In this document: positions 1 through 57,288 of the stretch, piece by piece
Numbering within the stretch: position 1 is the stretch's first letter
How the letters are laid out: each line of letters opens with the position of its first letter
Assembly: GCA_003971905.1 (NCBI GenBank)
Contig: RSEE01000166.1
Coordinates: 1-64,000, forward strand
Origin: Moniliella sp. 'wahieum'
Taxonomy: Eukaryota
Length of the DNA: 64,000 nt
Reading direction: 5' to 3'
Translations under genes and position numbers: made by a program
Notes under the pieces: generated by a model
What the model was told of the DNA's origin: nothing
Seen by the model: only the letters and a program-made list of their open reading frames with translations
The model's database searches: none

Positions 1-1979
1 GGGGAGGAGAGTTATGCCGAGGCGATAGCTCGTACCCGAAGGGGAGAGAGTTATGCGAGGCGATAGCTCGCTACCCGAAGGGGAGAGAGTTATGCCGAGG
101 CGATAGCTCGCTACCCGAAGGGGAGAGAGTTATGCCGAGGCGATAGCTCGCTACCCGAAGGGGAGAGAGTTATGCCGAGGCGATAGCTCGCTACCGAAGG
201 GGAGAGAGTTATGCCGAGGCGAAGCGAGCTACCCGAAGGGGAGAGAGTTATGCCGAGGAGATAGCGAGCTACCCGAAGAGGGGAGAGAGTTATGCCGAGG
301 CGATAGCGAGCTACCCGAAGGGGAGAGAGTTATGCCGAGGCGATAGCGAGCTACCGAAGGAGAGAGAGTTATGCCGAGGCGATAGCGAGCTACCCGAAGG
401 GGAGAGAGTTATGCCGAGGCGATAGCGAGCTACCCGAAGGGGAGAGAGTTATGCCGAGGCGATAGCGAGCTACCGAAGGGGAGAGAGTTATGCCGAGGCG
501 ATAGCGAGCTACCGAAGGGGAGAGAGTTATGCCGAGGCGATAGCGAGCTACCGAAGGGGAGAGAGTTATGCCGAGGCGATAGCGAGCCCGAAGGGGAGAG
601 AGTTATGCCGAGGCGATAGCTCGCTACCCGAAGGGGAGAGAGTTATGCCGAGGCGATAGCTCGCTACCGAAAGGGGAGAGGGAGAGAGTTATGCCGAGGC
701 GATAGCTCGCTACCCGAAGGGGAGAGAGTTATGCCGAGGCGATAGCTCGCTACCCGAAGGGGAGGAGTTATGCCGAGGCGATAGCTCGCTACCCGAAGGG
801 GAGAGAGTTATGCCGAGGCGATAGCTCGCTACCGAAGGGGAGAGGTTATGCCGAGGCGATAGCTCGCTACCGAAGGGGAGAGAGTTATGCCGAGGGTAGA
901 TAGCTCGCTACCCGAAGGGGAGAGAGTTATGCGGAGGCGATAGCTCGCTACCCGAAGGGGGAGAGAGTTATGCGAGGCGATAGCTCGCTACCCGAAGGGG
1001 AGAGAGTTATGCCGAGGCGATAGCTCGCTACCCGAAGGGGAGAGAGTTATGCCGAGGCGATAGCGAGCTACCGAAGGGAGAGAGTTAGCCGACGAGCGAT
1101 AGCTCGCTACCCGAAGGGGAGAGAGTTATGCCGAGGCGATAGCTCGCTACCGAAGGGGAGGAGTTATGCGAGGCGAGCAGTACCCGAAGGGGAGAGAGTT
1201 ATGCCGAGGCGATAGCTCGCTACCGAAGGGGAGAGAGTTATGCCGAGGCGATAGCTCGCTACCCGAAGGGGAGAGAGTTATGCCGAGGCGATAGCTCGCT
1301 ACCCGAAGGGGAGAGAGTTATGCCGAGGCGATAGCTCGCTACCCGAAGGGGAGAGAGTTATGCGAGGCGATAGCTCGCTACCCGAAGGGGAGAGAGTTAT
1401 GCCGAGGCGATAGCTCGCTACCCGAAGGGGAGAGAGTTATGCCGAGGCGATAGCTCGCTACCCGAAGGGGAGAGAGTTATGCCGAGGCGATAGCTCGCTA
1501 CCCGAAGGGGAGAGAGTTATGCCGAGGCGATAGCTCGCTACCGAAGGGGAGAGAGTTATGCCGAGGCGATAGCTCGCTACCCGAAGGGGAGAGAGTTATG
1601 CCGAGGCGATAGCTCGCTACCCGAAGGGGAGAGAGTTATGCCGAGGCGATAGCTCGCTACCCGAAGGGGAGAGAGTTATGCGAGGCGAGATAGCTCGCTA
1701 CCCGAAGGGAGAGAGAGTTATGCCGAGGCGATAGCTCGCTACCCGAAGGGGAGAGAGTTATGCCGAGGCGATAGCTCGCTACCCGAAGGGGAGAGAGTTA
1801 TGCCGAGGCGATAGCTCGCTACCCGAAGGGGAGAGAGTTATGCCGAGGCGATAGCTCGCTACCGAAGGGGAGAGAGTATGCCGAGGCGATAGCTCGCTAC
1901 CCGAAGGGGGAGAGTTATGCCGAGGCGATAGCTCGCTACCCGAAGGGGAGAGAGTTATGCCGAGCGATAGCTCGCTACG
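1..1979. repeat. 40-bp tandem repeat array (~49 units) at the window terminus; candidate telomeric or subtelomeric repeat
   Basis: Unit GGGGAGAGAGTTATGCCGAGGCGATAGCTCGCTACCCGAA repeated head-to-tail with no spacers. Scattered 1-2 nt indels. A variant TAGCGAGCTA replaces TAGCTCGCTA in a block of units. Confidence 0.97.
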
Positions 1980-2042
1980 AAATCGTCCGCTCGTTGCAGC
2001 ATATGGCCTCCGTTTTCGATCCGACGCACCGTTGACAAGTTA

Positions 2043-2083
2043 CACCCACCCATCCCTAACCCTACCCAACCCGACCCACCTAG
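2043..2083 (+). repeat. degenerate C-rich telomere-like repeats (CCCTAA-like)
   Basis: cacccacccatccctaaccctacccaacccgacccaccta contains one exact CCCTAA plus CCCTA/CCCAA/CCCGA/CCCA variants. The C-strand is on +, as expected for a left chromosome end. Confidence 0.55.
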
Positions 2084-2187
2084 ACGGGTGATGACTACGT
2101 CAGAGGTCATCGCTGAGGCTCAACCGGGTCACTCCAAAATCAATATTGATTTTGGACGTCAGGGGGGGGGGGCGATCAATAATTGCC

Positions 2188-2347
2188 TGTCGGCCTCGCT
2201 ACTACCACAGAATGTGAGCACTGAACGTCGTATTGGACTAAGAAGCTTCTGCGACTGACTCGTCCAGAAGACTGGTGCGAGCTCGGAAGGAATGAAAGCT
2301 GACTCACGTGACTCAGGGTCCGCGCGGTCCTAGGACGGATGTCAACA
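2188..2347 (-). repeat. 3' LTR of copia element (160 bp)
   Basis: Matches 7082-7240 except for one A indel near the end (tcaaca vs tcaca). Preceded on the minus strand by a short G-run PPT (gcggggg). Confidence 0.95.
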
Positions 2348-5300
2348 CCCCCGCTGACCGGAGGGCCCAGTCATGTGGACTGGATCCATCTCCTCGACGC
2401 GGAGTTGAGCAAGATGGCTTGTCAGGGCGGGACGGCCGAGAGGCTTGGTGAGGACGTCCGCTGGGTTCCTTTCGCCGGGGATGTGTACAAGTATGGCCTC
2501 GCCCGAGTCCACGTGTTGCCGTACATTGTGGTACCGGATCTTCAGCTCTCGGAGCTTGCCGGTGCTGCCAAATTTGTGGGCGAGATCGACGACAGACTTA
2601 TTGTCGCAATACCAATGAATGGGTGTACCCTCGCCGATGGCCCCAAGCTCGATCATGATGTTCTTGACATAGTTGGCGTCAACCAGTCCATCATATCCTG
2701 CCGTATATTGCGGCGGCGGCGGTACTGGTAACGCTCTTCGGCTGAAGAATGGATCGCCACGACACCGGCACACCGTACACCATCAGTAGGCATCCAGATG
2801 TGGAGCGTGCCTGGATGGGATCTCCCGCCAAGTCGGAATCTGTATACAGCGCAATGGCCGGTGCATCTGATGTTGGGGTCAACCTCAGGCCCTTTCCTCG
2901 AGTATGGTACAGGTAGCGAAGGAAGTCATCGACTGCTTGATGATGCTGCTGCGATGGGTCGGCAGCGGCTCTGCTGAGGGCCGTGATAGCGAAGAGGGAG
3001 TCAGGCCGGCCCATTCGTGCAGCCCACAGTCCCGATCCGATCTTCCCCTGATATGCCTTGCGCAAGGCTGGGAGGGATGGGGGTTCAGGGTCGGCACGGG
3101 GCGGTATCATCCGTACGGGATGTGGGAGAGTCCGGATCCACGGGGCTTTGATGTGGTGCTTTGCCACCACTTCCTCGATGAACTTTGGTTGGCTCAGGTA
3201 CAGCTCCCCACCGATCCGATCGTATTGGCATCCCAGGTGGTAGTGAAGGGGACCGTTACCACGAACATCAATGTGTGTGTTTATCTCGGCCATAAACTCC
3301 TCGTACTTTTGGTGTGACTTGCATGCGAGGAGCAGATCGTCGGTGTGGACCGCCAGGAGGATCTGCTCACCCGGTGGTGCAGCGCGCACGAACAAGCAGG
3401 GCTCGGTCAAGCTTTGCGTGAAGCCGAGCTTGTCACGCAGCAGGTTCCGGATGTATCGTGCCCAGTTTGCTCCGCTCTGATGTAGCCCGTATAGACTCTT
3501 CTTGAGACGCCACACGCGACCACCCGCTTCGGGGAAGTAGGGGGGTGGGCGGATGTAGACTGCTTCTTCGAGGGGGGCGTTCAGGTACGCTGCATTGACG
3601 TCCGCCGAGAAGAGGCCAAACTTATACTTCTCGGCCAGCACGACGAGGGTCAGGATGGCAGGTGTGCGCACCGATGGTGCGAACGTCTGGCCCCAAGTCT
3701 CGGCCGATTGTTGGTGTCCGCCCGCGACAAAGCGCGCGCGGTGGCGCAGGAACCGGCCCTCGGCGTCCGTCTTTGTGGTGATGCGCCATAGTCCTATGAG
3801 GATTTGTGCACCCGGTGGTGGGTACGTAGCCTCGTAGGTGCCGTATCGCGCGAGTGTGGCCACCTCGTCGGCCATAGCCTGCTTGACCATGGCAAAGGAG
3901 GGGTGAGTCTCGAGACCCTTGAGCGTCTTGGGAGCGAGGGGTACGCCATCCTTGGTGAGCTGAACCGTGTCCGGGTGGATGGGTGCGCTGAGAGCAGTCA
4001 TGGCGGCGTATTCGGGAGGTTGAACTGTGTCGGCAAACGGGGGGGCGGATGTGTCAGGTAGGGGGCGGGCGATGCCGATCTCTGGTGCGGCGCAGTGGGG
4101 CGTGGCGGCTGCAGCACGAGCATGGTAGGTCGTGTCGGTGGGGTCGTCAGCGATTGGGAGTGTGTGCAGGTCGAGGGAGGTGCGGGTGGTGCGCTGGCGG
4201 AGGGGGTAGCGGCGCGGAGGGGGGGTGGTGGTGGGGGGGTGTCTGGGGTGTGGCGGCGGTTCGGGGCATGGGTGCTGCCGCGGCTGGCGGAGTAGGGTTA
4301 GCGTCTTTTTCACTGTCGATTTTAATTTGAGGTGATTTGGAGATGTCGGGTGGGAAGTGGTCGGGGTGGAGATGGGGGTAGATGGCGTTGCCCCATTTGT
4401 ACGGTTTCGACCAGCGGTAGGTGAAGGTACCCAGGGATGGTTGGTATGTGGCGAAGAGCCATCCCTTTGATCCGCGCTGATGGTGGTATCCTACCAGCAT
4501 ACCTTCCTCTGCCCGCGCGCTGAGCTTGTGCTCGCGGCGTGACTCGGGCAGATGGAGGTATGCAACGCGGCCAAAGGGTTGCATCGGTAACGAGTATGCG
4601 TGGCCTTTGTATCGCTCAAATCGCGATTTGTTGTCTTCCCCGGATGTTTTGAGTGGCATTTGGTTTTGGGTGAAGCACGCAGCGTGGAGGCTGTGTTCCC
4701 ACCAGTCCGACGTCGGAAGACCTGTACCCAAGAGCAACTGCCTTGCACGAGTCGTTATGGTTCGGATGGCACGCTCAGCCACACCGTTGCTAGCACTCTG
4801 CCCCGGGATTGTCCGTTCTGACGTGATGCCTTGCTCGTCCAGAAAAGGTTGCAGTGCGCTTGTCAATTCGGGGGCGTTGTCCGTGCGCAAAGTCCGCAGC
4901 AGTCTGTCCGGGCCGTAGCGTTGCTCCCGCAATATGAGGTTCCGCAGTTCCTTCGTTGCAGCGCCCTTTGTCGGGATCGCTGTGGTGAAGACGTACCGCG
5001 TGAAGTCATCAACGGCGACGAGGGCGTATCCGTGCCCCATGCCGGTTACCCGGGGGAGGTCTACTACGTCGACGTGGAGGACCTCGAAAGGTCTTTTGGA
5101 TCGGAGGCGGTCCCGGCTCGGATGGGGCGATGCTGTCGCTAGTGCCACCGCGCATGTTGGGCAATCCCACTCTGAACGACAGAGGGAGATATGCTTGGCT
5201 GTGACGCGGAGGCCTGCGGTTTCCGATCGTGTAAGCCAGGGGAGGAGGTCGATGGCTGCGTGGTTCCAGCGTTTGTGGGCTTTAGAGACGTGGTCCAGGG

Positions 5301-5783
5301 CCAGGGATGCTGCGAGGGAGTTTGGGGTTGAGGTGGGTCGGCCGGTTTGATCGGTTTGGTCGCCATGGCCCGCAGGGGTGTGGGTGGCGTTCGCGGGTTG
5401 TGTAAGATCGTGAATTGATAGTCACTGCCGGTTACTTTTCGTAGGGTGGATCCTGGGTTACCAAGCCAGATACCCTTCTGGTGTGGGGCGAAGTATGATG
5501 CGATTCCGGTGTTCGACAGGTGTGCTACACTGACGAGATTTCGGCTGAAACGGGGCATGTATAGGCTGTTGGGGAGTTTTATCTCCATTTGGTGTCCTCC
5601 TAAGCATCGGATACGGATTGTGGCCGTGCCTCGTCCTTCCGCCTTTACATGTGTCCCGTTAGCAACCTCTATCTCGTCGTCGCAAGGGGTCATGGATGTG
5701 AAGACGGATTTGTCTTTCCAAATGGATGGGAATGCCCCACTGTCATATAATGCCCGGATGATTCGCATTTCGCCCCCGAGTTC
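2342..5783 (-). CDS. pol: copia Pol: aspartic protease, integrase, reverse transcriptase, RNase H (frameshifted)
   Basis: PR: LYDSGA...IEVANG...EGRGT...NLVSV. INT: WNH...CPTC, LHVDV, LRTDNAPE, SNGVAER. RT: RARFVAGG, DVNAAYLNA, LKKSLYGLHQSG, VHTDDLL. RNase H: YTDSD, YCDNKS, NPADVLTKPL. The TGA stop overlaps the 3' LTR. Confidence 0.95.
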
Positions 5784-7028
5784 CTAGTAGTCAGCTGTGC
5801 CCGCATCAACGTCAATCACTTCAGACTCGGGAGAGCTCGCTCTCTGAGCGACGTGAGCGTTGGCTCGGCCTGGGTTGCGCGGAGGGACAACAGGTTTATT
5901 AGACGTCGCGCTGCGCCAGGGTTGGTTGGTGCGGTCTTGCCCCTTGGTCTTTGTGTCCGCGAGGTTGTCGTCGCCGGCTTTGCCCCCGCTGGAGTTTTTT
6001 CCCCCGCTGGTGGGTCGTCCCCGCTGTCGGGTCGAGTCCAAGGCGTTCCTCCGTTGACCGGCTTGCCTCCGTTTCTCTTCCTTTCTCCACCGGGATACGT
6101 GGCGGCTGGTATGTCCATCACGGCCTGCCGTAACTTGTCTAGACTCGAGCGCTCTTCACGCTGGCGAATGCTCATGTCGCGTAAGCCGAGTAGGATCCCA
6201 GTGCGTTCCTGCTCTTCCGTAAGTGGGATGCCCGCTCGCGTCAGGCTTGCACTGATCTCTTCCATGTAGTCGAGGTAGTCTCGACCCGATCGGTTTCCTT
6301 GGTCGGCCGAAAAGTAGCGAATGAGTAGAGGCCCTCTGTTTGCGGTAGGCGTATATCCATACCGCTGACGCAGCATGTTCAGCGTGTCCTGGGTGCATGA
6401 TATTTCGTGGTGGGTGCGGATCGTCCGGAAGAGGGTTGACGGCATGGCTTCCCTAAGAAGGTTGTGCAAGCGTCTGTCGAGGTCCTCGGTGAAGTAGCGG
6501 GAGCTGCGACCATTCTGGACGACGTCGCTTGCGTGGGGGTGGGCATCTGTTATCGCGAAGAGAAATTCGTCTTCCCAAGCGCTGTAGGCGGACGGGTCTT
6601 TGTTCAGATCAGGCCACTTGATATTTGGTGGGAGACTCGCGTAGTGATCTGTAAAGGTCGTACTCGGGTCGCGAGGCTGCGCCTGTAGGTGCCCCCAAAG
6701 TTGCGTTGGGTTGAGTTTCCATTTGGTGGATGTTTTGCACCACAAAATTCGTAGCCCGTCGAACCCAGTTTGTCGTGATAGACGTAGGTTCGTCCTTCCA
6801 TCCAAGCCACTCGGCTCTGTCGTGTATAGCTCTGTTGATCTTCTCTTTAACGACATCGATGTCGTTCGTCTTCTTGAACCACAGGTGCGCTTCGGCGCAA
6901 AGCATCATGAGTTCCTCGTTGTCGGTGCCAATCGGTGGCGGATCGCGACCGGTTGGTGTCCAGTAATCGCGCTTGTTCACCATTGTGGTGTCGCTGACCG
7001 AGAGATCGGTGTTAGCGTTGGCGCCCAT
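5784..7028 (-). CDS. gag: copia Gag (split by frameshifts across ORFs 6609-7115, 5816-6856 and 5784-6041)
   Basis: Lies directly after the 5' LTR. Copia-gag-like helical segment AYSAWEDEFLFAI...LNMLRQRYG...YLDYMEEISASLTRAGIPLTEE...ILLGL. Ends at TAG 5784-5786. No CCHC knuckle seen. Confidence 0.8.
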
Positions 7029-7081
7029 GGTTGTGGGTGTAGTTTTGGCCAGCTCAGGATGAGCAGATAAGGATGTAACTC

Positions 7082-7240
7082 TGTCGGCCTCGCTACTACC
7101 ACAGAATGTGAGCACTGAACGTCGTATTGGACTAAGAAGCTTCTGCGACTGACTCGTCCAGAAGACTGGTGCGAGCTCGGAAGGAATGAAAGCTGACTCA
7201 CGTGACTCAGGGTCCGCGCGGTCCTAGGACGGATGTCACA
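7082..7240 (-). repeat. 5' LTR of copia element (159 bp)
   Basis: Direct repeat of 2188-2347, flanked by TSD TTGCC. Confidence 0.95.
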
Positions 7241-8241
7241 TTGCCAGCGCCCAATGATTCAATAACATATGCTAGGGACTACTGCTGTGGGAAGTGGGGG
7301 CTGGAACGGCTGAGACCCAAGTTGGCATGGTCACATCCACCCTGGGTACTATCGGTAGGGATACGCTAGGGTGCCCACGCGACGCAAGACCAGGCGTCAG
7401 ATCGGAGTGAGAGTGGTATCGTTGGAAAGCTACGGCCTGGGGCTATTCAAAAAAACTCACTCCCCCGGTCTGCCAGTCAAAAGTTGTCTCAACCCTGAAT
7501 GGGTGGGGTGGGCATGCCCTTGTAATGACCGGTGACCCATGATGCATGACGGGTGATAGAGTATCACGATCCGCGAAACACACAGCAGATGCTGGACGCA
7601 AGGAGAGGAAACGCGCGCAACTAACCCCGCAGCACTGGGCCAGTGGTCAGAGCCTGCGGCGTTCGCCACGCGCGAATGTACATGCCGACCCATGCTGACC
7701 CCACCGGTCGTCGCTCTTCCGCGGCCGCCGCGACATTCATTTTAATCCTCCGCCTCTTGAGTCTCCAGGTTGGGCGCTGCCGTTGTCGAATGCCATCAAA
7801 TACGGAGTGCCGCGACTTTTCTCCACTGCCACCATAACCCCGAGACCTGACGCATGCTCATCAGTAGGTTGCCATTTGAACTTGTCCTCCAGATCGCCAC
7901 CAGCGGGGTGCTCGACCCGCGCGATCGTCCACCTGTCGTGGTGCAACAAAGGTGCGTCTCCTGGCATACGCACTTCTGTGGAGTGGGCTGGTTCAGCGTC
8001 TGACCCCTTACTTATTGGGGCGGGTAGCTTGGTACGCCGCTTGGAGGGAGATGAACGTGGCATCGAATCGCGTGTCCGGTTGCTTCGTCTGCCTCATTAT
8101 GCTCGAATGGAGCTGGCGGATGCCACGCTGCATGTTGGATTCCACACGCCGTTCCCAGTACATGGAGGGCGCTCGTTGTGGCCGCCGAACTGCTGGAGGA
8201 AGAATTTGGATGGACATTGACCGGCCGCTCAATCGTCGACG

Positions 8242-10157
8242 ATGATCAAGATGTACTTCGCCCAGGGTCCCCGGGTGGTCAACACAGAAGTACCAGAACT
8301 GGTAACTGCAGCAACGATCAACGAATTGGGAAGCGATATATTTTCGGGCCCCACTACCGAATTGAATGAGCTACTTGGATCCTTCCTTCCAGTTCCGACC
8401 AACTGCTGGATGGGGACAGCTACAGTCCCCATGTCCTTTGATGAGATGAAAAGGGGGTTGGATGAATATCGGCCTTCACTTCCGGGCATTTCTTTATGCG
8501 GGGCAGGGTGTCACGCAAAGGAATGTTGTGGACACGCTGGGCTCCAAGTATGTCCTCCTATCCTATCCCCTCTCCTTTTGCTCGCGTATTAGATACCTCG
8601 TGATGGCTGACCATTCACCCTACTAAACCCAAAAAGGAATCTCCCCTAACGGTGTCCAACAAGTTGCGTATACGATTGATCGTTTTCGAGAGATCCTATT
8701 GTTGATTCTCCAGACGGCCGGGCCCAGGACAAATCCTTCAGGACGCTGGTCATCCCCGTAGCGAATGATTCATACGTATTTGCCAAGAAACGGGGTCAAT
8801 GTCCAGATCTTGTGCGTAGATGTCAGCAATGAGGCGCTCTGGTGCCTGATGCTGTGACTCTGCTGACTCTTCTTCTTTCCATCAGACATTTGAGGAAGAC
8901 CAATTATAATTGTCGAGAAGAACGTGTGGTGAAGCTGCAGGCGGCCAACTGGACTCTTGTACGGTGAGAGAGACGGTCGAATTCAAGCTGAATTCCAAAC
9001 TATTGAACTGGCATCCGGACTCGTTCTGCGTCGACGAGCAATGGGTCTATCTATATAAGTGTCCTTCCACCTGGGTTGGGTGGTGGGAGGTGTTCAACCG
9101 CTCTTTTGGCAACACACGTCTCTATTCGTTGGAGGATGTATTGACTCTACAGCGTGACGGTAGCGACATGGTGCATGTCACACATTTCCGCCTGGTCGGT
9201 ACCAGCACACCCGAGGGAAAACCTCGTCTCGAAGCCTATGCCCCCTCTGACAAGCAACCTCAACAATTTCTTCTCTGTTCCTTTGCATTTGGTCGGTGTT
9301 CGAACAGCTGGGCCTTTCTTTTGAGAAGAAGAAACGGAGGCATGGGGGCTGCGTCTAGAGGAGCGGACTCATCGACTGGTTGTCGTCAAGAATTTCGAAA
9401 GCCTCGTTGGCGCGCACCCAAGGACAACGTTGCGTCCCTGGATTTTCACGGGTGGACTTTAAGTTTGGCCCCATGTACCGCCTTACGGACTTGCAGATCC
9501 CGTGGCCCTACCATGATTCGATGACTTTGGCAAATAGGTCATCCGACTGGAGAACAAGATTCATGTTGGATGGTCGAGCTTGCGTTCCCACGAACGCCTA
9601 TGGCTGGCGATATGTCGTGAACCAAGCGGGACATGTGGTTTGCAAGGCGGGTGTGCCTGAGTACTTGGCCCAACATGACACCGTCACGGGTTGTCTGCAG
9701 GTTAATGTACTGGACTGGAAGTACGCACAATCGGCTTCGGACGTACGAGTGATCGGGTTCCCCATTCGTCCGATCCGGGTCGACACGAGCCCACCACTCT
9801 TGGTTGGGAAGGAGCTTCGCGTTCCTGGTCCCCAAACCAGCGCTTCGAACGCCATGTTGCACTACACGATACCCGGTTCCATTTCGTTGGATGTATCTAT
9901 GATGGGACCAACGAGCTTGCTCATCACGTTGGTCTCCATCTGGTCCGACGTAGGGCTAGAAGAAGTGATTCATGATGACTGCAACGAGGCTTGCCCCTTC
10001 AACCATTATGGTGAACTTCCCAACGCCAAGCAGGAAGAGACATTGGGACGGGTATGCCAAGTTGATCGGGCACGGTGACGACTGGCGGAACCCCAAGGCA
10101 GTCGCCTTCATTTGGATTGGGGACGACGCGCACGCGAATGTGTTGAAAGCACACTGA
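8242..10157 (+). CDS. hypothetical multi-exon subtelomeric gene or pseudogene of unknown function
   Basis: Chain of same-strand, protein-like ORFs (8242-8592, 8910-9524, 9380-10078, 9972-10157). GTATGT...TAG intron-like segment at ~8548-8592 and a CTGAC...CAG acceptor at ~8885. No motif recognised. Confidence 0.4.
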
Positions 10158-11729
10158 AGCGGTTGCCACGTGGAGAGTTCGGAGTATTTGCCAAGCAAAG
10201 GAGGTGCTGGCCACCCACCCCCGTCGTGGCTGCCTCAGGTGCACGTGGCACGGGAGGGCTGGTTCGCTACCACTGCAATACATAGGAACATATGCCAAAA
10301 CACTACGCAGGCAAGGCCCCATAGGCTTGACGCTTGCCTGGGTGGCAGTTTCTCTGTGTTGGATGGCACTTACAACTAACTTACAACCACAACTTAAAGC
10401 ATCGATCATCAGTGTTGGAAGCAGATTGAATGTGCCTTCGGTATTGACAAGAGAACCGACTAATGACTGGCACACAGAGGCGAGGGAAACAATCAAAGAG
10501 CACAGATGCGTAGTATACTTGCCGGCGGGGCGGTGGTTTATTATGGTTAGCCCAGACGGTGCAGAGGAGTCCGGTGCTCTGTGGGACAAACGCTAACCGT
10601 TACTAGGCAAGGAAGCCAGTACCACTGTTGATTCAACTCCTACCATTCCGCCATGGGCAGCAAAATGAATCGCCGGCCGTCTATGCTCAAGGGGCCTGGG
10701 TCTGCCGTTTTTTTCCTGGCCAGAGAAAACACCGTGGTCGGCGAGTGGCGCAGACTGGCCTTTCTCTGCCACCACCACCACCACCATTACCCCTTGGGCC
10801 TGCTCTGTCTCTTTCTTTCCCTCCTCCGTTCTTTGGTTTTTCTTTCTTTCCCGGTCATGTGGGGTGGTATCATGCATGACATTGCTCCGGGTGGTACTGC
10901 TGCGCCCCGAGTCAACGAGGGCCTGTCGCTGCTTCAGTACCGTGACCAGGACACGGCAGGGATCGTGTCATGTGGTCCTGATGCAAAGGCAACGGTTAAT
11001 AGGTGCGTGACGTGTTTAATGCCTCGGCGCTCAGCGTGTGGTGGGAAACATGGGCATTTGTCATGTCCGCTACCCTACCGCTGGCTATCCAACCACGCGG
11101 AAGCCCAACCGTTCTACGTCAACTCGCCCTACGGCATTACCTTTGCCCATCTAGGCCTGGTTCCTTCTGTGATATAAGCAACCATGTCTAAGGCTTGCTA
11201 GCTGTGGTCCTTGTCGACCATCCTGTCTTTGGTCTCCCCAACTACCCTTCTCTCTCGCCCTTCCACCTTCTAGTGTGTTAGCCCATCTGTGGTGGTCACA
11301 GAACGGTTGGAACCGTCGGACATTGCGGACGTAAAACCGCGTAGCTTGACGGCCTGACGCGTGACGTATTTTGCTTGACGATCAAGGTTAGGATTAGCAG
11401 CAGCCGAACGGCGGATTGAAATTGAATCCATTCCCTCCTCCCGATTCACGCTGCGGGGCACCACGCACGGGCCAGGGGCTGTGAAAGTGGGCCAAAGCCT
11501 GGGGTGAGCTCCGCGCACAGACCTGCCCAAGCCCCTTCCTCGCCATCCCCCACCACCATCGCCATGCCCCCTCCTCCCCGCCCGTCGCTCCCTCCTACCA
11601 ACCACAGCCCGCCCGCCTGTCCGGGCCGCGTGGCCTGCTCGGGCTGCGTTGCCGCCAGCCCTCCACACCACTGCCCTCTTGTGCCACCCCTACTGCACTG
11701 GCGTCCAAGAGGCCACTTCTGGGCTGGCC

Positions 11730-12712
11730 ATGCACAACACGGCCCGCCAAGGCTTTGACCTCTCGGGCTCATCCGGGCTCTACGACCGCGCCCGGCCTAG
11801 CTGTGCGTCTATCCGCTGCCTTTCCTTTGCGCGATGATGGCGAGAGGGCGCGACTGAGGCTGACGTCTCTAACCCCCCAGACCCGGATGAGGCGCTGGAT
11901 GCGATTTTGGACGCACCGCAGAGCCAGAAGACTGAAAGTAGCTGAGCTTGGTTCCGGTACTGGCATCTCCACCGCGCTCTACTTTTGCGTGCGGGTGCCC
12001 GGGGTAACCCCTGGCGTCGCTCGATGCGTTGAGAGTCGGAAGGCATGCGCGCCAACTGGGAAGCAACCACAGCCGCGATCCTTCATACTCCCGCCTACCA
12101 GGGAAGCGTGGTGCCCGGAGGCCATGTGCGTTGCCACCCAGGCACACTTTGACTCATTCGCTGCCACCGCTGGGCCGGGGACCTTAGATCTGGTCTTGGT
12201 CGCCAGGCTTGGCATTGGACGCCTGATTTAACGCAGCTCTGGCTGAAGTGGCCCGAGCGCTTCGCCCGGGCGGCGTGCTGGCGCTGCTTTGGAACCTGGA
12301 GGACCGTGATGGCGCGCGCTGGGTGGCCCACTAAGGCAGATGTACGAGGCTTATGAACATGGAGCCCACAGTACCACCGCGGCTCCTGGCAGGCCATGTA
12401 TGCCCAAGATGCGATGCCTATTCGAACTGCATACCCCACTGCATTTGAAGCGTGTCATCCCGGCACTAAGCAGAGCGTCAAGATCGTGTGTTTAGCAAGT
12501 CTCTCCTCTTGCCATCGGAGCAGAAACAAGTTGTCGACACGTTTATAGACCATCTCTGGACGAACCCGACGCGGACCTGGACCGCAAATGGATCGACGAA
12601 GAAAAAAAAGACTTTTGAATACGTGCGCTACCTCTGTCCTCTCCCCGTCCACACCCATGACCTCTTCCCCCTTACTCCAGCATATCGTCATGCTGCAAAA
12701 GTTTTATACTGA
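11730..12712 (+). CDS. class I SAM-dependent methyltransferase (Methyltransf_11 / Crg1-Tmt1-like), frameshifted
   Basis: MHNTARQGF...LYDRARPS|YP across intron ~11803-11880. Motif I VAELGSGTGIST, then DLVLVA-QAWHW and ALRPGGVLALLWNLEDRD. Confidence 0.85.
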
Positions 12713-12958
12713 CTTGTTTTACTGTGCCCCAGCCCCCAACTGCACGGATGTCTATCTCTTCACCAGAAATGAAGCTGCTCCCCCCTGTAGCTACTGCGCT
12801 CGTGCCCATGTGCATAAACTCTCTTTTCCAATTGCATCACTCTGAACGGTTGGGTGAGATCAGTGGCGATGTCATTGGGCTGTGTCCATTTAGACCAGGG
12901 AGTGGGTAGAATGGACGTAAGCCGAAGCCGAAGGAAATGGGACAACCACCCCTGCTAG

Positions 12959-14717
12959 TCACAGCGTTCCGGCCTTGCTAGCGTGGCAATGATTGCACCA
13001 GTGCGCGCTAAAGTCCGCACCAATTCAGAAGACTCCAGCATACCACGAAAGTCACGAGGCTAGCCAGTTATAGTGACACCACCGTCGTCAGCATCCAAGT
13101 TTGATCATCACAAAATGGAAGGATTAAAGGCGTACCGTAGATACAGCAAATGGATCGGAATCGATGCTGGCCACGACACTACCTGGATGGGGACTGGAGA
13201 TAAGCATCAATGTGTTAGAGAAGAATAATACAAAGAAAGAAGAGGTAAGATGATATTGGGGGGGAACGTACGAATCACTTATGGACAGACAAGGAGTGCA
13301 AAACCGGAGGTCGATAGATGCCTTCCATTCGGATTGACAAATCAGGGAAAAGAAAAAAAACAAGCCAGTCTCCCATCCACATCGCGCGCCACAGTTACCG
13401 AAGAAACGATTTACCATCCAACGCCCGTTTCTTCCCAAGTTTTTTGTGTGCAGAACAGCGGGTGTGGGGTGTACGGATTGTTCAGGCAAATTTGTTGAAG
13501 AAGAGTAAATAGTCCGTTCCATACCCGGTGTGAGGATGTATCGCTGCAGCTGGCTCAACTGCCTCATTTAGCAGACTGGCTTGCATGATTAGCGGCGGAA
13601 GAATACCGAGAATTGCTTCGGCTGTGAACTCGGTTTCCCCCCCTGCTCTCTGCTTCAGACTCGGAAGCTATTAAGTCATACCCCTCCTTTGTCTGGATGT
13701 GCAGCTGGATGATGGCAGCAGGGTCCAAGGGCCTACGGTCCTGGTCCCCCACACATGCGACCTTGCAAAGGTTGCTCGCGAAGCACCAAACCAAACTGCA
13801 GCGTGTTGATGTCCAAGTCGATTACAGTTGGGGAAACTGTTGACGACGAGGCTACTGCTTGATTATCACGCCCATAAAGAGGCATTGGAAGACCTGAGGC
13901 CCGTGGCATGGGTTGGGCAGTCCCAGAGCAGCTTCGACCTGCAGGAGAGAATTGGCTGTGGTCAGAAGAAGTCTTCTAGACCACTTCGTTGGGAATGATG
14001 CATACCCTCACGGGATGGTGTAGACACGTCCGATCCCCTCACGACCCACGTGGGACGGTCGCTTGCGCGATTCTTGTTTATGAGAGGTTGAATGAAGTGG
14101 TGGTGAAGAGCGGCGAGGTGGACTGGCGCTGCGACGCCGCATAGCCGAGGGCCAAAAAGGTATGAGCTCCTTCTGTTGAGTGCGAAGATTGGGCGGGGCG
14201 GCGACGGCGAGTGGGCCGATAGAGTTACTCGAACGTGGCGATGCTTTAGACGAAACGGTCGCGCATGAGGACCGTTGGTATCTATAAGCTGGCGACGGAG
14301 CAAGATTGGGATGGCGCCGTCAGATATGTGGCCCAGTGTGTTGTTCAAACTTGGCCTTTTAGAGTAGGTGCGATGGTTACGCTCCGCCCCCCTGCGGGAC
14401 GATGAGTCGATGTGAGTGGGTGTCAAGAAGAAATGCTGGTGGAAGTGGACGCGAGTACATAGCACCTTCATGATTTCTGGACAACGGTAATGAGGTACTT
14501 GCACCTTGAGAGGAAGGATTGAGAAGGGAGGATATGGTAGGGAGCGCCCTAATAGTAGGTCGGGATGGGACAGCCGAACTTTGCGTTGGATTGGTTGAAG
14601 CCCGAAGTCGTGGGCCATTACCGATAGAACCGCCTCCTGAAGGCGAATGTGATCCCTTGGAACTCGATCCGGAAAGGCGGGACAATCGTTAGGGTGGCTA
14701 GCTCTTCTGCGATCCAT
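12959..14717 (-). CDS. velvet-domain transcriptional regulator (velvet domain C-terminal, several introns, frameshifted)
   Basis: Motifs read across frames: LVLREQPLQGRMCG-GDQDRRPLDPAAIIQL; VSSVTVARDVDGRLACFF-FPDLSIRMEGIYRLRF; SDPFAV; PRDFRGMLESSEL-RTLARTG. These match conserved velvet motifs (QP..ARMCG, DRRP.DP, F.DLSVR.EG.YRLRF, FPGM..ST.LS). The start codon is uncertain. Confidence 0.85.
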
Positions 14718-16189
14718 TTTGCGCCCTGCCGATGAGGCCGTTTGGTCCGGGTAAGGGTACGTGTGTGGAGCGAGGGGTCGTGTTGGAGGTGTTCGGTTGA
14801 CTATCTGACGGTGCCCGGGCTTTTTGGGGTGAATGAGAAAGGTGGCGGTCGCATCAGCGCCATCAGCGTTCACGCGAAAAGCTGCAGAGAAACATGATAC
14901 CCAGTGGGCAACTGAAAAAGGGAGGGAGGATGCGGCATGAGAGCGTACTAGCAAGTGTGCTGGTAGACAAACTGAATGTGATCTCCAGTAGTGTCCGCTT
15001 CGCCCCTTCGAGCTTCAAGCTTCAAGCTTCAAGCTATCATGCACCGTATGTATCGCACAGAGGACCATGTTGGGCACAGGGGTTGGTAGTAATCACATGA
15101 TCACACGATCGATGTGAAAGGTTTGTGAACAAAGATCGGGACTACCCGGTACGATTGCATGATTAAAGCCACAGGCCCTTCCAGTCAGATCTCAGATCTC
15201 GGAGGCCAAAAATAGTCAGGCCTCAGGGCCTGAGCCTCAGGCCTCAGGACCTCAGGCCGTCCGTCAGTCAAACGATGGACTGTCTAAACTCCGACGGTAC
15301 TCTGAGACAGGGTACGAAGTGCTTCGTGCCTTGTGGCTTCAGTGGTTGATTTCCACAGGAGTTGCCACGCAGTCCCCTCTCAGGCCTGAGCCTCAGGCTG
15401 AGGCCTCAGGTGAGGCCCCAGGGCATCAGGCTCAGGCCAGGTGTCAGCATGCACATGTCAAGCTTCAAGAGCTTCAAGCTTCAAGCGTCTCAAGCCTCCT
15501 TCAGGCCTCACTCACTCACCATGGAACACAGCACACCTGTGATACTTCGAACCACAGTAGATATACCAACAGAGGCCAACCGTATGTTGCAGGTAATGAG
15601 TCCACGAGTCCACTGAGGAAGGTGGTAGAAGGTTGAACGTTTTTGAATTTGATGAAGCTTGAAGCTTGAAGCTTGGAGACACTAATAGATGCTCGAAGCA
15701 TTTGGCGCTTGAAGATCTTGAAGAGCTTCAAGCTTGAAGCTTGAAGCAGGATGCAGGAGCCCGCCCCTCTCCGTACGCATACCTCCGCCACAGTTGTACA
15801 TGCTACATGTTACTAGTTACTCTACTGGTGATACAGTGCGTGATTGCTTCGCTAGTGTTGCAGACGAGGATCGACCCGCAACCACAGAACCTGGTTCGGA
15901 GACGGGGAAATTGGCGATTGGAGCGAGCGTCAGGTCAGTGAATACGTACGTTTGTATGTTGATACGTCGGTGTGTTGATGGAACGTTCATGCATGGATGA
16001 CACTTCCATTCATTAATCATTTGGGCTGTGTGATGAATGTGACGCATGTGTGATTTTGTGGATTATAATGGGGCTATGCACTATGTCTGGCCATACACTA
16101 TGCCTGGCCATGCACTATGCCCAGTGGCTAATATTGCTAGAGTGCGACTTGGGAGCACTCGCGATCCTATGGATCAGCTGCGAAGCAGT

Positions 16190-16342
16190 CTTCAGACAAG
16201 GCGTGAAGGCAAAGTGATGAGCCACAAGTCTTCAAGCAACGTCTCATTGTGAGGAGCAACAGGTCAAGAAAGGAAGCAGAGGCGTACCTTCAGACAAGGC
16301 GTGAAGGCAAAGTGGTGAGCCACAAGTCTTCAAGCAACGTCT
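16190..16342. repeat. 55-bp direct repeat pair
   Basis: cttcagacaaggcgtgaaggcaaagt(ga/gg)tgagccacaagtcttcaagcaacgtct at 16190-16244 and 16288-16342, one mismatch. Confidence 0.9.
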
Positions 16343-16987
16343 GAAGGGAAGGAGAAAGGAGAGAGAGAAGGGAGATGGAGCGAGCAGGGCGTGCGCGGCC
16401 TGCGAGCGGAACGCTTCCGCTCGGCTAGGCGAGCGTCACCGATCCATTGAGGGCCGCGCAGGAGAACCCTAGCAGTCCCTCTAACAAATATACCTGGCTA
16501 TTTCCACAGCATCCGTCGCTGTAAAGTTCTTGGACGATGGCTACTCAGTCTGAGTGCTCAGTCTGAGCTGCTCAGTTACTCAGTTACTCAGTACTAACCG
16601 GTCGCCGGCCCATATCTTAGAGAGATACAAAAAAGGGAAAAGTTCGGTGTGGCCACTACTGAGTGACAGAAGTGTGATGCCGCGCTCACGTAAGCCACAC
16701 CGCGCGTGCCAGCCCCAGCAAGTATCGGTGATATTATTTTGCCTCTCCAGCGTGGAAGGGTTCCAGGGTGGAACGGTGGGCCGGTGGCTAAGGTGGCGAC
16801 GCAGCACCAAGCACCAAGCTGGGGCGAAGCCCCAGCTGACCGGGTCGTAGGCCCGGTGGTCTCCTCGTGTCACTGATAGTAATTAGCCTGCCACTCTAAT
16901 CACTAGAAGTCACATGTCACACGTCACACGTCACACGGGTCACTATTAGTCCCTTTCACTGCATGGCAGACCCTTATGGACCCTTCT

Positions 16988-17828
16988 TGTCACGGGCTGC
17001 GGCGGACACGAGATGGTCCGACCCAAGCTAAGGCCCGCCTGCTCCGCACATGCCCAGTAGAGCGTGCACCGCAGGCCAACCAAGTGTGATGATGGTTGGC
17101 TAAATTAAGTATCGTGGCCGAAGGGCCATGCTCCGCGCGACAACAGTCGCCAGTCGGCCGGCCTAAATAAGGCCATCGAGCTTCCAGTGCCGTGGCGGCA
17201 TCTGCCGTCCCGTCCCCGTTTCCGTTTCCTTTCTCGGTCGCGCCTGTGGCGACCAACCCCGCTTTGACATGTCTTCCTTTCTACACCCCCTCTTGTATTC
17301 GTTTCCCTTTTGATCCTGCCTGTACCCCTGGTTGACGGGGATCTTTTCCCCCACCTTCCATTCTCGTCATCCTCTCGTCATCTCTCGTCTCCACCTTCGT
17401 CCCTTTCCCGCCTATCCTGTCCGACTCCTGCCCGTTTTCCAGCCAATTGATCCAGTACAGGCAGCTCCTCTTGTTAGCGTCCGACATCTCCTCCGACCTC
17501 GTCCTCCAGCTCTTCGTCAGTCCAATCGCGCGAACCCTCCTTCGATCGCGGCGATTCCCAGTCTCAGTTGAGGCAGTGTTTGTCCCCCTCTGCCTCCTCC
17601 CGTCCCTAAGTCCCGGAGGCTTCAGACACGTTATACGGCCCAAGCCGGTGCAGACGCAGCCTTGCCACACGTGCAGCCGCCCCACCAAGGCCTCTCCTCG
17701 TCCCTAGCTCCGCTCGGACACACCAACCAGCCTAATCCCGAAACTACCGGAGTCGACCTACCGTCGCCTAAGGGATTGTACCCCAAAAAACTCCAGGGCG
17801 GGCCCCCTGGCGGCGCCCGCCCGTGACA
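16988..17828. mobile_element. solo LTR (841 bp), probably Ty3/gypsy type
   Basis: Starts TGTCACGGGC and ends GCCCGTGACA (10-bp terminal inverted repeat). Flanked by 5-bp TSD CTTCT at 16983-16987 and 17829-17833. No coding domains inside. Confidence 0.88.
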
Positions 17829-17833
17829 CTTCT

Positions 17834-19340
17834 GCTCCAGGTATATGCGTCACGCGTCACTAACGTCATTGTTGACGCCAAGAAGGGACCCGAGACTCCC
17901 TCTACCACCCCCGACGCCAGAAACCCCGAGAGGGTTGAAGCGCTGCTGAGCGCTAACGCGTAACGCCTAATGCTTACGCGTACACTGAAGTATATGCTAA
18001 CTGTGGAGTAAAACACGTCGGTCATTTGTGTGTTTCGTACCTGTTGTAATGCTTGTTGCGCCCCGAATAACAACAAGATCTGACGTGATGCGTGAGGATC
18101 AGGGACAGTGACCTTATCCTCATGGCCTCCAATTCATTGCGGAAAGGTGCTCTCCTCTCTTACCCCAAACAACACTACTTCTCATCGACGCGCTGCTTTA
18201 TGTGAACGGGCCGAGGGACATCGAAATGCCAAGCAATTATTGTTTGTCGGTACTGTAGGTGATGTTAGCACACTGTTTGGGGCGAGAAAGTGGGGCTGTT
18301 GGAGTACTGCAGTGAGTGCGCACGGTCGCCTATCCTATTGTCGACACCGGGTTGAATTCAACCACGCTCAACTCCCTATGCCCGCTGCATCCAACTTGGC
18401 ACTGCAGTCAACAGGCCTCTCAGGGGAGGGGGAGCTGGGGGGTGCAGGCCTCAAGTTGGTTAACGACAGGCGCCCAACGGTCTCCAGCAGACCAGATGGG
18501 CGTCCGGGACGAAGCGCCACTCCAACAAGATGAGCTGGAAGAGTGGCAGCGGGGCGAACCTATACCAGTAACGGGCTTAATACTACGGTTGAGCACAGAA
18601 GTACTGAGTTATTGCGCAGTGATCCATCCCCGGGTCGAGGCCAGCTTCTCTGGCGCATGGAGTTGCCGCGCCCCACGAGTCACTGTGGACGCCCCCGACA
18701 TATCGCGTCGTTGTGCCCGCTCCGAGCAGGCCGCATCTTGGCCTTCATCCAAGGTGCCCTGGGGCACGCTGGGGCTCGTTCGTTCTACGTCGCCTTCGCG
18801 CTCGCTACTATTTCCCGTGCATGGATTAAGCGATCACCCGCTTAGCCCTCCTGGCCTGACCGGCCCGTCGTGAAGCGGCTGTCCTTGTGAGCCCCAAGGA
18901 CAGCTTGGGAGAACGTTCCCCGGCCGGCATCGGCATGTATTGCTACGCCGACTATGGCCACACCGGCTCGTCGGCCCTCTCCTGAGAACACCATTTTCCT
19001 CCTCGTCGATCAGGCATTATATCGAACTTCATTGCCGGGGGCGCTGCTTCCTTCCAAACAGGCAAGGAGACAGGAGTCATGTTGCACACACTGGGTCCGG
19101 CCTTATGGTCCATCTGAGACGCTTACCACGGACTCAGGGGGGGGCATTCGCAGCGACGTGGTTCTCGGACCTGGTCTCGCAAGGCGTGCAGGAAATGCAC
19201 TCAAGCGCGTACCACCTTAAGGCAACGGGCCGGCAGAGGCAACTGTCAAGCATCAGATCAAGCGCTCTCTCAGCCTCGCGCTGCGAGACCCACGCTAAGC
19301 CGCCCTGCTCCGCACTGGAGTTGGACTATGGTGTTGGATT
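17834..19340 (+). pseudogene. degenerate Ty3/gypsy-like pol relic (RT end, RNase H, integrase)
   Basis: NPERVEALL (RT thumb-like), ALGHAG (integrase zinc region), and YGPSETLTTDSGG / GAFAATWFSDL..GVQEMHSSAYHLKATG (rve core D..G..F...SAYHP..NG). RT precedes INT. Many stops and frameshifts. Confidence 0.7.
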
Positions 19341-19361
19341 CTGTTATTCATGCCTATAATG

Positions 19362-57034: not shown

Positions 57035-57288
57035 GCGTTACAGTCTCGAGCGAGCGGAGCAACCGCAACACGCATGGGGATGGCCCAGGGTAGGACTGTG
57101 ATGGCATCGTATGATAGAACCGCTCGTTGGTCTCGTCGACAGGTCTCTAGAGGTTCTTTGCTGTGCACAGCAAGCTGAGGTAGCCAGCTTGTCGCCTCAG
57201 GCGAGGGGGAGAGGTGGACAGATGCCACAGGGGTACTGTCATCGTTTGTCGGCACTGCCGTGATACGAGGAGGCAGGACGGACAGCAA

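What the first reader, a model, noticed from the sequence alone, without database searches (positions are those of the whole stretch)
1..1979. A 40-bp tandem repeat occupies the telomere position: candidate unusually long telomeric repeat or telomerase-independent end
Seen: the window begins inside ~49 homogeneous 40-bp units with no TTAGGG tract visible distal to them. Each unit contains CCCGAA (TTCGGG on the outward strand, one base from TTAGGG). Degenerate CCCTAA repeats lie just proximal in the same orientation, followed by a transposon-rich subtelomere-like zone. Established: most basidiomycetes use TTAGGG, the long telomerase repeats of budding yeasts are roughly 25 bp, and Ustilago maydis has a 37-bp repeat proximal to its TTAGGG tracts. 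Inference: this is either a very long telomerase-templated repeat, a recombination-maintained terminal satellite, or a subtelomeric satellite whose TTAGGG cap was not assembled.
Basis: partly seen in the sequence, partly recalled or inferred. Interest (0 to 1): 0.75.

Follow-up and report, generated by a model that had tools for sequence, protein, structure and literature searches.

The report
40-bp satellite near fungal chromosome end
A real and very uniform 40-base repeat array begins this fungal sequence just outside a worn remnant of ordinary telomere repeats; it is most likely a repeat block beside a chromosome end whose true tip was not assembled, not a new kind of telomere.

Summary
The array is real: 49.9 copies of a 40-bp unit at 1-1978. 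Almost all differences between units are indels of the kind an error-rich assembly makes.

- **Against telomerase:** two true unit variants lie in blocks, 10 B units in a row inside A units. The strand running out to the end is C-rich. Both argue against synthesis from one telomerase template and for recombination or slippage.
- **Flank:** 62 bp inside the array lies a 33-bp run of seven C3 tracts with a CCCTAACCCTA core, oriented as a left-end telomere. A young Copia and about 13 kb without recognisable genes follow.
- **Organism:** a smut-relative fungus that falls outside the five sampled Microstromatales. That order was shown in 2026 to cap its chromosomes with 41-178-bp arrays (PMC13234504).
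- **Not testable here:** no genome or source reads were available, so whether the array is terminal stays open.

Best reading (0.45): a subterminal satellite distal to an internalised telomere tract, with the cap not assembled. Rivals:

- internal satellite at an assembly break (0.2)
- tandem block of a telomere-targeted retroelement (0.15)
- true ALT-like terminal array (0.15)
- telomerase-templated repeat (0.02)

An earlier scan note (e1-7835206) reports a like array on another piece of this genome.

The parts
1..1978 (+). 40-bp tandem array, 49.9 copies. The + strand is G/A-rich (G15 A10 C9 T6 per unit). The strand running outward begins each unit with TTCGGG.
208..601 (+). Block of 10 consecutive B-variant units (GCGAGC in place of GCTCGC). 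The change flips the centre of the 10-nt palindrome TAGC-TC-GCTA to its reverse complement. One more B unit lies at 1046. A garbled unit at 1163 was also labelled B by the script.
   Evidence: longest B run 10; no permutation of 100000 reached it
1979..2040 (+). 62-bp unique spacer between the array and the telomere-like tract. The last unit is cut after GCTACGAA.
2041..2080 (+). Degenerate C-strand telomere-like tract. It holds seven C3 tracts at 2045-2077 with core CCCTAACCCTA at 2054-2064. Read outward on the G strand it is TCGGG TTGGG TAGGG TTAGGG ATGGG TGGG.
2133..2156 (.). Perfect 24-bp palindrome TCCAAAATCAAT/ATTGATTTTGGA; role unknown.
2183..7245 (-). Young Copia-type LTR retrotransposon. 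LTRs lie at about 2188-2347 and 7082-7240, with 158 nt 100% identical. A 5-bp target duplication TTGCC lies at 2183-2187 and 7241-7245. RT and integrase ORFs are on the minus strand.
   Evidence: flanks read
7246..20000 (.). Zone with lower GC (0.558 against 0.635 further in) and no recognisable gene or transposon domain.

Best explanation
The array is a young, recombination-homogenised 40-bp satellite in the outermost part of a subtelomere. It lies distal to an old telomere tract that has become internal.

- **How it grows and shrinks:** by unequal exchange, gene conversion or replication slippage between units. This is inferred from the block pattern of the variants.
- **Telomerase:** it is not synthesised by telomerase.
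- **Assembly:** the assembly stops inside the array, so the real chromosome tip is missing. That tip would be a TTAGGG cap, perhaps after more satellite.

Shown: the array, its two variants in blocks, its strand composition, the telomere-like tract and its orientation, the Copia insertion, and the gene-poor flank. Inferred: the position at a chromosome end, the missing cap, and the mode of expansion.
For: 1. Near-perfect homogeneity. Against the two variant consensus units there are only 4 substituted positions and 51 indel positions over 49 units. Exact units are rarer towards the window start (9 of 30 before 1198, 13 of 19 after). This fits falling consensus quality at an assembly end.
2. 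Variants lie in blocks. Ten B units run in a row inside A units, and 0 of 100000 permutations reached that run. Local duplication or exchange gives this pattern.
3. A telomere-like C-strand tract lies 62 bp proximal, in the orientation of a left end.
4. The first 18 kb inside the array hold one young Copia and no recognisable gene. Housekeeping genes start near 20.7 kb.
5. Distal subtelomeric tandem repeats directly under the telomere are known in fungi. One example is the roughly 0.9-kb STR of M. oryzae TEL4/TEL8, which expands and contracts without change at the tip (PMC7367193, passages).
6. Unchecked earlier notes of this scan speak for a working TTAGGG system in this genome: a candidate telomerase RNA (e1-7641912) and telomere-targeted retroelements at another end (e1-7648826).
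7. Named relatives outside Microstromatales are reported to keep TERT and TTAGGG (PMC13234504, section read). The organism falls outside the Microstromatales clade.
Against: - No sequence distal to the array is available, so a cap is assumed, not seen.
- A long-read assembly would often carry a TTAGGG tract if it lay only 2 kb beyond unique sequence. Its absence fits a much longer array or a true end as well.
- The telomere-like tract has only 1.8 canonical units, and similar low-complexity runs occur twice elsewhere in the window.
- No telomere-linked helicase or other classic subtelomeric gene was found.
- I cannot show that window position 1 is a contig end, nor that the contig end is a chromosome end.
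Confidence: 0.45

Rival explanations
1. Internal satellite at an assembly break. The contig simply ends in a repeat that the assembler could not cross, and the place is not a chromosome end. The telomere-like tract is then chance low-complexity DNA or an old interstitial tract.
For: - The canonical core is short and not beyond chance by itself: 3 matches against 2.56 expected.
- Two other C3/G3 runs exist in the window.
- Earlier unchecked notes report other contigs of this assembly ending in a 676-bp satellite (e1-7649786, e1-7835305). The assembly has at least 95 pieces, so most contig ends cannot be chromosome ends.
- A Copia element and gene-poor, lower-GC DNA also fit a pericentric region.
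Against: - A run of seven C3 tracts arose in 0 of 200 simulations.
- The tract has the orientation expected of a left end.
- It sits 62 bp from the array.
Confidence: 0.2
2. The array is the tandem-repeat block near the 3' end of a telomere-targeted non-LTR retrotransposon of the MoTeR/FoTeR/Cnl1 kind. The element was reverse-transcribed onto a short telomere. Its body and 5' end would lie beyond the window start.
For: - Such elements always point their 5' end to the chromosome tip. Their 3' end abuts an interstitial TTAGGG tract of half a unit to over 20 units (PMC7367193; PMC12857005). The layout here, array then 62 bp then C-strand tract, has that orientation.
- Read outward, the tract runs TCGGG, TTGGG, TAGGG, TTAGGG. 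This is the same order as the MoTeR-MoTeR junction TTCGGG(TTTGGG)n(TTAGGG)m.
- These elements are rich in tandem repeats, and the largest array of MoTeR1 lies near its 3' end.
- Unchecked notes report such elements in this genome (e1-7648826, e1-7648827).
Against: - No non-LTR reverse transcriptase or REL endonuclease was found anywhere in the ORFs scanned. In particular, none lies proximal to the tract, where the junction grammar would place a second element.
- 2 kb of one 40-bp unit exceeds the total tandem-repeat content given for MoTeR1 (1167 bp).
- The match in junction order rests on four short words.
Confidence: 0.15
3. True terminal array: a telomerase-independent, recombination-maintained (ALT-like) chromosome cap of the kind shown in Microstromatales. 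Here it would have been added outside an eroded TTAGGG tract, in a lineage outside that order.
For: - A kb-scale array of a long unit lies at the start of the sequence with no TTAGGG distal to it in the window.
- Published arrays have units of 41-178 bp and span 1.6-21.6 kb.
- A block pattern of variants fits recombination.
- Proximal repeats as remnants of former telomeres capped by a new motif is one scenario of that paper.
Against: - The outward strand is C-rich (G9 C15 per unit). The motifs in the part of Table S4 that I read are written outward from GGG and look G/T-rich. My hand count of one 41-bp motif is G17 C4.
- In a 131-aa one-gene tree the organism lies outside the clade of the five Microstromatales, which has 100/99 support.
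- No Microstromatales protein was among the 11 OST48 hits, although the database holds those proteomes.
- Unchecked notes point to a telomerase RNA candidate in this genome (e1-7641912).
- TERT and Tpp1 status could not be tested.
Confidence: 0.15
4. A 40-nt telomerase-templated telomere repeat used at all chromosome ends.
For: Each unit holds TTCGGG on the outward strand, one base from TTAGGG.
Against: - Two unit variants lie in blocks, which one RNA template cannot give.
- The outward strand is C-rich.
- A canonical-type tract lies proximal.
- No partial copy of the unit occurs elsewhere in the window.
Confidence: 0.02

Closest known systems
Distal subtelomeric tandem repeats (telomere-associated satellites), e.g. 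the ~0.9-kb STR of Magnaporthe oryzae TEL4/TEL8 (PMC7367193)
   Same: Both are head-to-tail arrays directly under the chromosome tip, each unit carrying a telomere-like hexamer, with copy number changing by unequal exchange or gene conversion. A degenerate TTAGGG tract between an outer repeat domain and an inner domain is the layout I recall for human and yeast subtelomeres (recalled, not checked here).
   Different: The unit is far shorter (40 bp). The telomere junction is not seen here. The hexamer is TTCGGG, not TTAGGG.
[quoted passage not shown]
   Same: Host is in the basidiomycete subphylum Ustilaginomycotina. Long-unit arrays of kb scale lie at sequence ends, and variants and lengths point to recombination.
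   Different: - The unit is 40 bp, just under their range.
- The outward strand is C-rich, where theirs are G/T-rich.
- A TTAGGG-like relic is present, where they report complete erasure.
- The organism lies outside the sampled clade.
- None of four 14-mers of the unit occurs in their supplementary tables.
- Terminal position and loss of TERT are untested.
Telomere-targeted non-LTR retrotransposons MoTeR1/2, FoTeR, Cnl1 (PMC7367193, PMC12857005)
   Same: The orientation relative to an interstitial telomere tract matches. So does the TCGGG/TTGGG/TTAGGG order at the junction. These elements also carry tandem-repeat blocks, including one near the 3' end.
   Different: No reverse transcriptase or REL endonuclease is seen. 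The array is larger than their repeat blocks.
Long telomerase-templated repeats of budding yeasts (about 8-25 bp; recalled)
   Same: The unit is longer than 6-7 bp and holds a telomere-like core.
   Different: The unit is 40 bp, has two variants in blocks, and is C-rich on the outward strand.
Complex terminal satellites of chironomids and Anopheles (cited in the introduction of PMC13234504)
   Same: A satellite array serving as a chromosome end and kept up by recombination is a known solution.
   Different: These are animals that lack telomerase and have much longer units. Nothing shows that this fungus lacks telomerase.

Membership tests
Microstromatales-type noncanonical telomeric array | kb-scale tandem array of a long motif at the very end of the assembled sequence | tested here: met
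   40 bp x 49.9 copies at 1-1978. The published range is 41-178 bp and 1.6-21.6 kb. It is not shown that position 1 is a contig or chromosome end.
Microstromatales-type noncanonical telomeric array | Array is physically terminal (BAL-31 sensitivity, long reads ending in it) | not testable with these tools
   No genome is held. The only run found is a food metagenome kept as contigs.
Microstromatales-type noncanonical telomeric array | Genome lacks TTAGGG-like repeats | tested here: inconclusive
   A degenerate tract with CCCTAACCCTA lies 62 bp proximal. The rest of the genome was not available.
Microstromatales-type noncanonical telomeric array | Genome lacks TERT (Est2) and Tpp1 | not testable with these tools
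No genome is held.
Microstromatales-type noncanonical telomeric array | Host belongs to the order Microstromatales | tested here: not met
   In the Cdc4 light-chain tree, five Microstromatales form a clade with 100/99 support and the query lies outside it (one gene, 131 aa). No Microstromatales protein was among the 11 OST48 hits.
Microstromatales-type noncanonical telomeric array | Outward 5'->3' strand is G-rich (shared by the motifs I read; not stated as a definition) | tested here: not met
   The outward strand has G9 C15 per unit. The motifs in part 4 of the supplement start with GGG and look G/T-rich.
Telomerase-templated telomere repeat | One unit sequence copied from one RNA template | tested here: not met
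   Two variants, A and B, lie in blocks.
Telomerase-templated telomere repeat | G-rich strand carries the 3' end | tested here: not met
   GC skew of the outward strand is -0.25 per unit.
Telomerase-templated telomere repeat | Same repeat in the same polarity on all chromosome ends, and a template locus of about 1.2 units | not testable with these tools
   No genome is held. Within the window there is no copy outside 1-1978.
Subtelomeric tandem repeat / telomere-associated satellite | Array lies directly proximal to a terminal TTAGGG tract | not testable with these tools
   The distal side is not in the window.
Subtelomeric tandem repeat / telomere-associated satellite | Lies in a gene-poor, repeat-bearing terminal zone next to telomere-derived sequence | tested here: met
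   Telomere-like tract, a Copia element, no recognisable gene up to about 20 kb, and lower GC.
MoTeR/FoTeR/Cnl1 telomere-targeted retrotransposon | ORF with reverse transcriptase and REL endonuclease | tested here: inconclusive
   None was found in the window. For the distal element it would lie beyond position 1.
MoTeR/FoTeR/Cnl1 telomere-targeted retrotransposon | 3' end abuts a short interstitial telomere tract, with the 5' end towards the chromosome tip | tested here: met
   The layout and orientation fit. This holds only if 1-2040 is element sequence, which is not shown.

The most novel reading that the evidence does not exclude
The array is the true end of this chromosome. That would be a second, independent origin of satellite-type, telomerase-independent chromosome caps in basidiomycetes, outside Microstromatales. 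It would have been caught with the fossil of the old TTAGGG telomere still lying 62 bp beneath the new cap, and it would have the opposite strand composition to the published cases.
Probability: 0.12. Interest if true: 0.7.

Novelty: new member of a known kind. Interest (0 to 1): 0.3.

Why it matters
**If the array is only subterminal.** It is an ordinary species-specific satellite. It is useful mainly as a marker of this chromosome end and as a warning that the assembly is incomplete there.

**If long reads show that molecules end in it.** It would extend the 2026 finding of satellite telomeres beyond Microstromatales. It would also supply what that study lacks: a relic of the ancestral TTAGGG tract directly under a noncanonical array. 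That would bear on how a lineage switches from telomerase to recombination-based end maintenance.

The test is cheap for anyone who holds the raw reads.

Tried and rejected
- **Whole-genome search and genome file:** no genome is held for this window. Other contig ends, TERT, Tpp1 and a telomerase RNA template could therefore not be searched.
- **Sequencing runs:** only three runs of one food-metagenome study were found, kept as contigs. The best holds 0.11 of the words.
- **Laying those runs on 1861-10000:**
  - X1 gave two 70-letter contigs on the array unit and four pieces inside the Copia. I read 70 letters as a closed 40-bp cycle at 31-letter words.
  - The junction 1957-2252 and 7239-10000 had no cover. 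No contig showed a loose end leading out of the array.
  - Word depths were 14.3 + 9.4 on the unit against about 2.5 on the Copia pieces. By the tool's own warning these are not copy numbers, so I draw nothing from them beyond presence in a second data set.
- **Pattern scan of metagenome contigs with a 21-mer of the unit:** one single-copy chance match inside a 2326-bp contig, no array.
- **Earlier-findings look-ups:** by sequence, by neighbourhood and by relatives all found nothing.
- **Supplement of PMC13234504:** four 14-mers of the unit gave 0 occurrences.
- **Full-text search for four 17-21-mers of the unit:** 0 papers.
- **Rfam at gathering scores:** 0 matches. **tRNA scan:** 0.
- **Pfam on ORFs:**
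  - 16 ORFs between 5.8 and 19.9 kb: 0 families.
  - All 131 stop-to-stop ORFs of 55 aa or more between 7.2 and 20.1 kb: 7 weak matches in 6 ORFs, all under the curated cut-offs.
- **Largest ORF there (350 aa) against 1.84 billion representatives:** 0 hits.
- **Single-strand folding:** three A units fold better than shuffles on the + strand only (z -3.1; minus strand z -0.24; two B units z -0.65). I draw no function from this.
not found in the passages of PMC4192592 and PMC6167521 that I read. The original 1990s papers were not available to me.

Full report
**Observation**

- Tandem Repeats Finder reports one array at 1-1978: period 40, 49.9 copies, 94% matches, 4% indels. The consensus is GGGGAGAGAGTTATGCCGAGGCGATAGCTCGCTACCCGAA.
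- Two halves of the unit, searched with up to 3 mismatches, match 40 and 29 times. All matches lie inside 1-1978 on the + strand, with none expected in 100 shuffles each.
- The array holds no CCCTAA or TTAGGG. CCCGAA is present 36 times and CCGAA 13 times.
- So the core observation stands.
- I could not check that position 1 of the window is a contig end, because no genome is held for this window.

**Anatomy of the array**

I split the array into 50 units and compared 49 of them with their consensus.

- There are 4 substituted positions and 51 indel positions.
- Most indels are changes in the length of C or G runs. Housekeeping genes further in are broken between reading frames: OST48 at 38623-39465 / 39147-39869 and the lipid-droplet hydrolase at 57324-58571 / 58147-58977. 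I therefore read most differences as assembly errors and take the true array to be almost perfectly uniform.
- Exact units are rarer near the window start (9 of 30 before 1198, 13 of 19 after).
- One difference is real. Units carry either GCTCGC (A) or GCGAGC (B). B swaps the centre of the 10-nt palindrome TAGC-TC-GCTA for its reverse complement.
- The order along the array is AAAAA BBBBBBBBBB AAAAAAAAAAA B AA B A... The second isolated B is a garbled unit at 1163. A run of 10 B was reached by none of 100000 permutations.
- Blocks of a variant inside the other variant are what unequal exchange, gene conversion or slippage produce. Copying from one RNA template does not produce them.
- Per unit, the + strand has G15 A10 C9 T6. 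At a left end the strand that runs 5'->3' to the tip is the complement. It is C-rich, although it begins each unit with TTCGGG.
- Three A units fold better than shuffles on the + strand only (z -3.1). I draw no function from that.

**Flanks**

- The last unit is cut after GCTACGAA and is followed by 62 bp of unique sequence (1979-2040).
- Next comes CACCCACCCATCCCTAACCCTACCCAACCCGACCCACC: seven C3 tracts with 1-3-nt spacers at 2045-2077.
  - A run of six or more arose in 0 of 200 Markov simulations.
  - Two other low-complexity runs of this type exist in the window.
  - The canonical core is only 1.8 units, which is not beyond chance by itself (3 matches with up to 2 mismatches against 2.56 expected).
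  - Its orientation (C strand on +) is that of a telomere whose tip lay to the left. Everything in 1-2040 is therefore distal to a probable former telomere.
- A perfect 24-bp palindrome lies at 2133-2156.
- A Copia-type element follows on the minus strand (RVT_2, integrase).
  - Its LTRs are 100% identical over 158 nt.
  - From the sequence I read LTRs at about 2188-2347 and 7082-7240, and a TTGCC target duplication at 2183-2187 and 7241-7245. This is a recent insertion in place.
- From 7246 to about 20 kb, GC is 0.558 against 0.635 further in.
  - 16 ORFs gave no Pfam family. These were 15 of the 64, plus one.
  - All 131 stop-to-stop ORFs of 55 aa or more gave only 7 sub-threshold matches in 6 ORFs.
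  - The largest ORF has no relative among 1.84 billion representatives.
  - 'Transposon-rich' is therefore not supported beyond the one Copia. 'Gene-poor' is supported.
- From about 20.7 kb on there are ordinary genes: UCH, flavin reductase, Nse1, histone H1, a Cdc4-type myosin light chain, OST48, HSF and others.
  - One search scanned 14 of the 37 ORFs.
  - One search scanned 71 of the 159 ORFs.

**Organism**

- The best named hits were:
  - Tilletiaria anomala, 56%, for OST48 (11 hits);
  - Meira miltonrushii, 47%, for a branched-chain dehydrogenase E1-beta-like ORF;
  - many Ustilaginomycotina at 78-82% for the myosin light chain.
- The database does hold the proteomes of five Microstromatales, yet none was among the OST48 hits.
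- I built a tree of the 131-aa light chain from the query and 21 of the 120 listed hits: 16 named Ustilaginomycotina, one unnamed 91% relative, and 4 outgroups. Three further Malassezia and all other rows were left out.
  - The five Microstromatales form a clade with 100/99 support.
  - The query and its unnamed relative lie outside it, in an otherwise unresolved polytomy.
  - This is one short gene, so a sister position to the order cannot be excluded.

**Outside data**

- The only public runs found belong to one food-metagenome study.
- Laid on 1861-10000, run X1 holds two 70-letter contigs on the unit and four pieces inside the Copia. Four of the six are 99% or more alike.
- The satellite and the Copia family therefore exist in a second data set.
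- Nothing there tells what lies beyond the array.
- A 21-mer scan of metagenome contigs gave one chance match.

**Earlier notes of this scan (unchecked by me)**

- A like 40-bp array at the start of another piece of the same genome, next to worn telomere repeats (e1-7835206).
- A candidate telomerase RNA (e1-7641912).
- Decayed telomere-targeted retroelements at another chromosome end (e1-7648826, e1-7648827).
- Contigs ending in a 676-bp satellite (e1-7649786, e1-7835305).

**Literature**

*Brejova et al. (PMC13234504).* I read the abstract, introduction, three results sections, the discussion, one methods section, and part 4 of the supplement.

- Four Microstromatales yeasts lack TTAGGG, TERT and Tpp1.
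- Their chromosomes end in BAL-31-sensitive arrays of 41-178-bp motifs, 1.6-21.6 kb long and mostly specific to one end.
- Other Exobasidiomycetes, including Tilletiaria and Meira, keep TERT and canonical repeats.
- Four 14-mers of my unit are absent from their supplementary files.
- The motifs I saw are written outward, start with GGG and look G/T-rich. My hand count of one 41-bp motif is G17 C4. This is the opposite of the array here.

*Rahnama et al. (PMC7367193, passages) and the FoTeR paper (PMC12857005, passages).*

- Telomere-targeted retroelements point their 5' ends to the tip.
- They are separated by TTAGGG tracts of half a unit to over 20 units.
- They begin with TTCGGG(TTTGGG)n and are rich in tandem repeats. 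The largest array of MoTeR1 lies near its 3' end.
- A subtelomeric tandem repeat directly under the telomere expands and contracts without change at the tip.

*Searches for prior print.*

- No searched paper prints the 40-mer.
- A search for noncanonical telomeres in basidiomycetes brought up only the Brejova paper and its preprint on that subject.

**Weighing**

- **Telomerase-templated 40-mer (0.02).** The least likely reading: two variants in blocks, a C-rich outward strand, and a canonical-type tract beneath.
- **True ALT-like terminal array (0.15).** It has a precedent and cannot be excluded without reads. Against it stand the reversed strand composition, the position of the organism outside the known telomerase-free clade, and the unchecked hints of a telomerase RNA.
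- **Retroelement tandem block (0.15).** It explains the orientation and the TCGGG-TTGGG-TAGGG-TTAGGG order of the tract, but no reverse transcriptase supports it in the window.
- **Internal satellite at an assembly break (0.2).** This stays a fair possibility in an assembly of at least 95 pieces.
- **Subterminal satellite distal to an internalised telomere tract, kept uniform by recombination or slippage, with the cap not assembled (0.45).** This is the reading I hold most likely.

**Novelty**

- The sequence is new. The kind is known.
- Interest is modest unless reads show that molecules end in the array. The test is simple for whoever holds the reads.

Noticed in passing
window 2183-7245: Copia-type LTR retrotransposon with LTRs 100% identical over 158 nt and an intact 5-bp target duplication (TTGCC). 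It is a very recent insertion about 105 bp inside the telomere-like tract. Pieces 99% or more alike occur in a food-metagenome run.
   Followed up: partly
window 2133-2156: Perfect 24-bp palindrome TCCAAAATCAAT/ATTGATTTTGGA, followed by a run of 11 G, between the telomere-like tract and the Copia. Its role is unknown.
   Followed up: no
window 15006-15035, 15216-15258, 16909-16937, 25166-25227, 30509-30538, 40106-40144, 42427-42464, 43465-43530, 51718-51745: Nine short tandem arrays with a 7-bp period in one 64-kb window. This fits earlier notes of this scan on frequent heptamer repeats in this genome. I did not test their palindrome rule.
   Followed up: no
window 38623-39869 and 57324-58977: The OST48 and lipid-droplet hydrolase genes are each split between two overlapping reading frames. 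This looks like indel errors of the assembly, which also explains most unit differences in the array.
   Followed up: partly
window 56127-57098: The branched-chain keto-acid dehydrogenase E1-beta-like ORF is only 47-54% identical to its best database hits, which are mostly ascomycetes apart from Meira. It is an unusually divergent or patchily distributed gene.
   Followed up: no
window 7246-20000: About 13 kb with lower GC (0.558) and no Pfam domain in 131 ORFs. A 350-aa ORF at 13965-15014 (minus strand) has no relative among 1.84 billion representatives. This is orphan or decayed sequence.
   Followed up: partly
window 208-601: The B variant of the unit differs from A by reverse-complementing the 2-nt centre of a 10-nt palindrome. 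Template switching within a quasi-palindrome would make such a change. This is my inference and was not tested.
   Followed up: no
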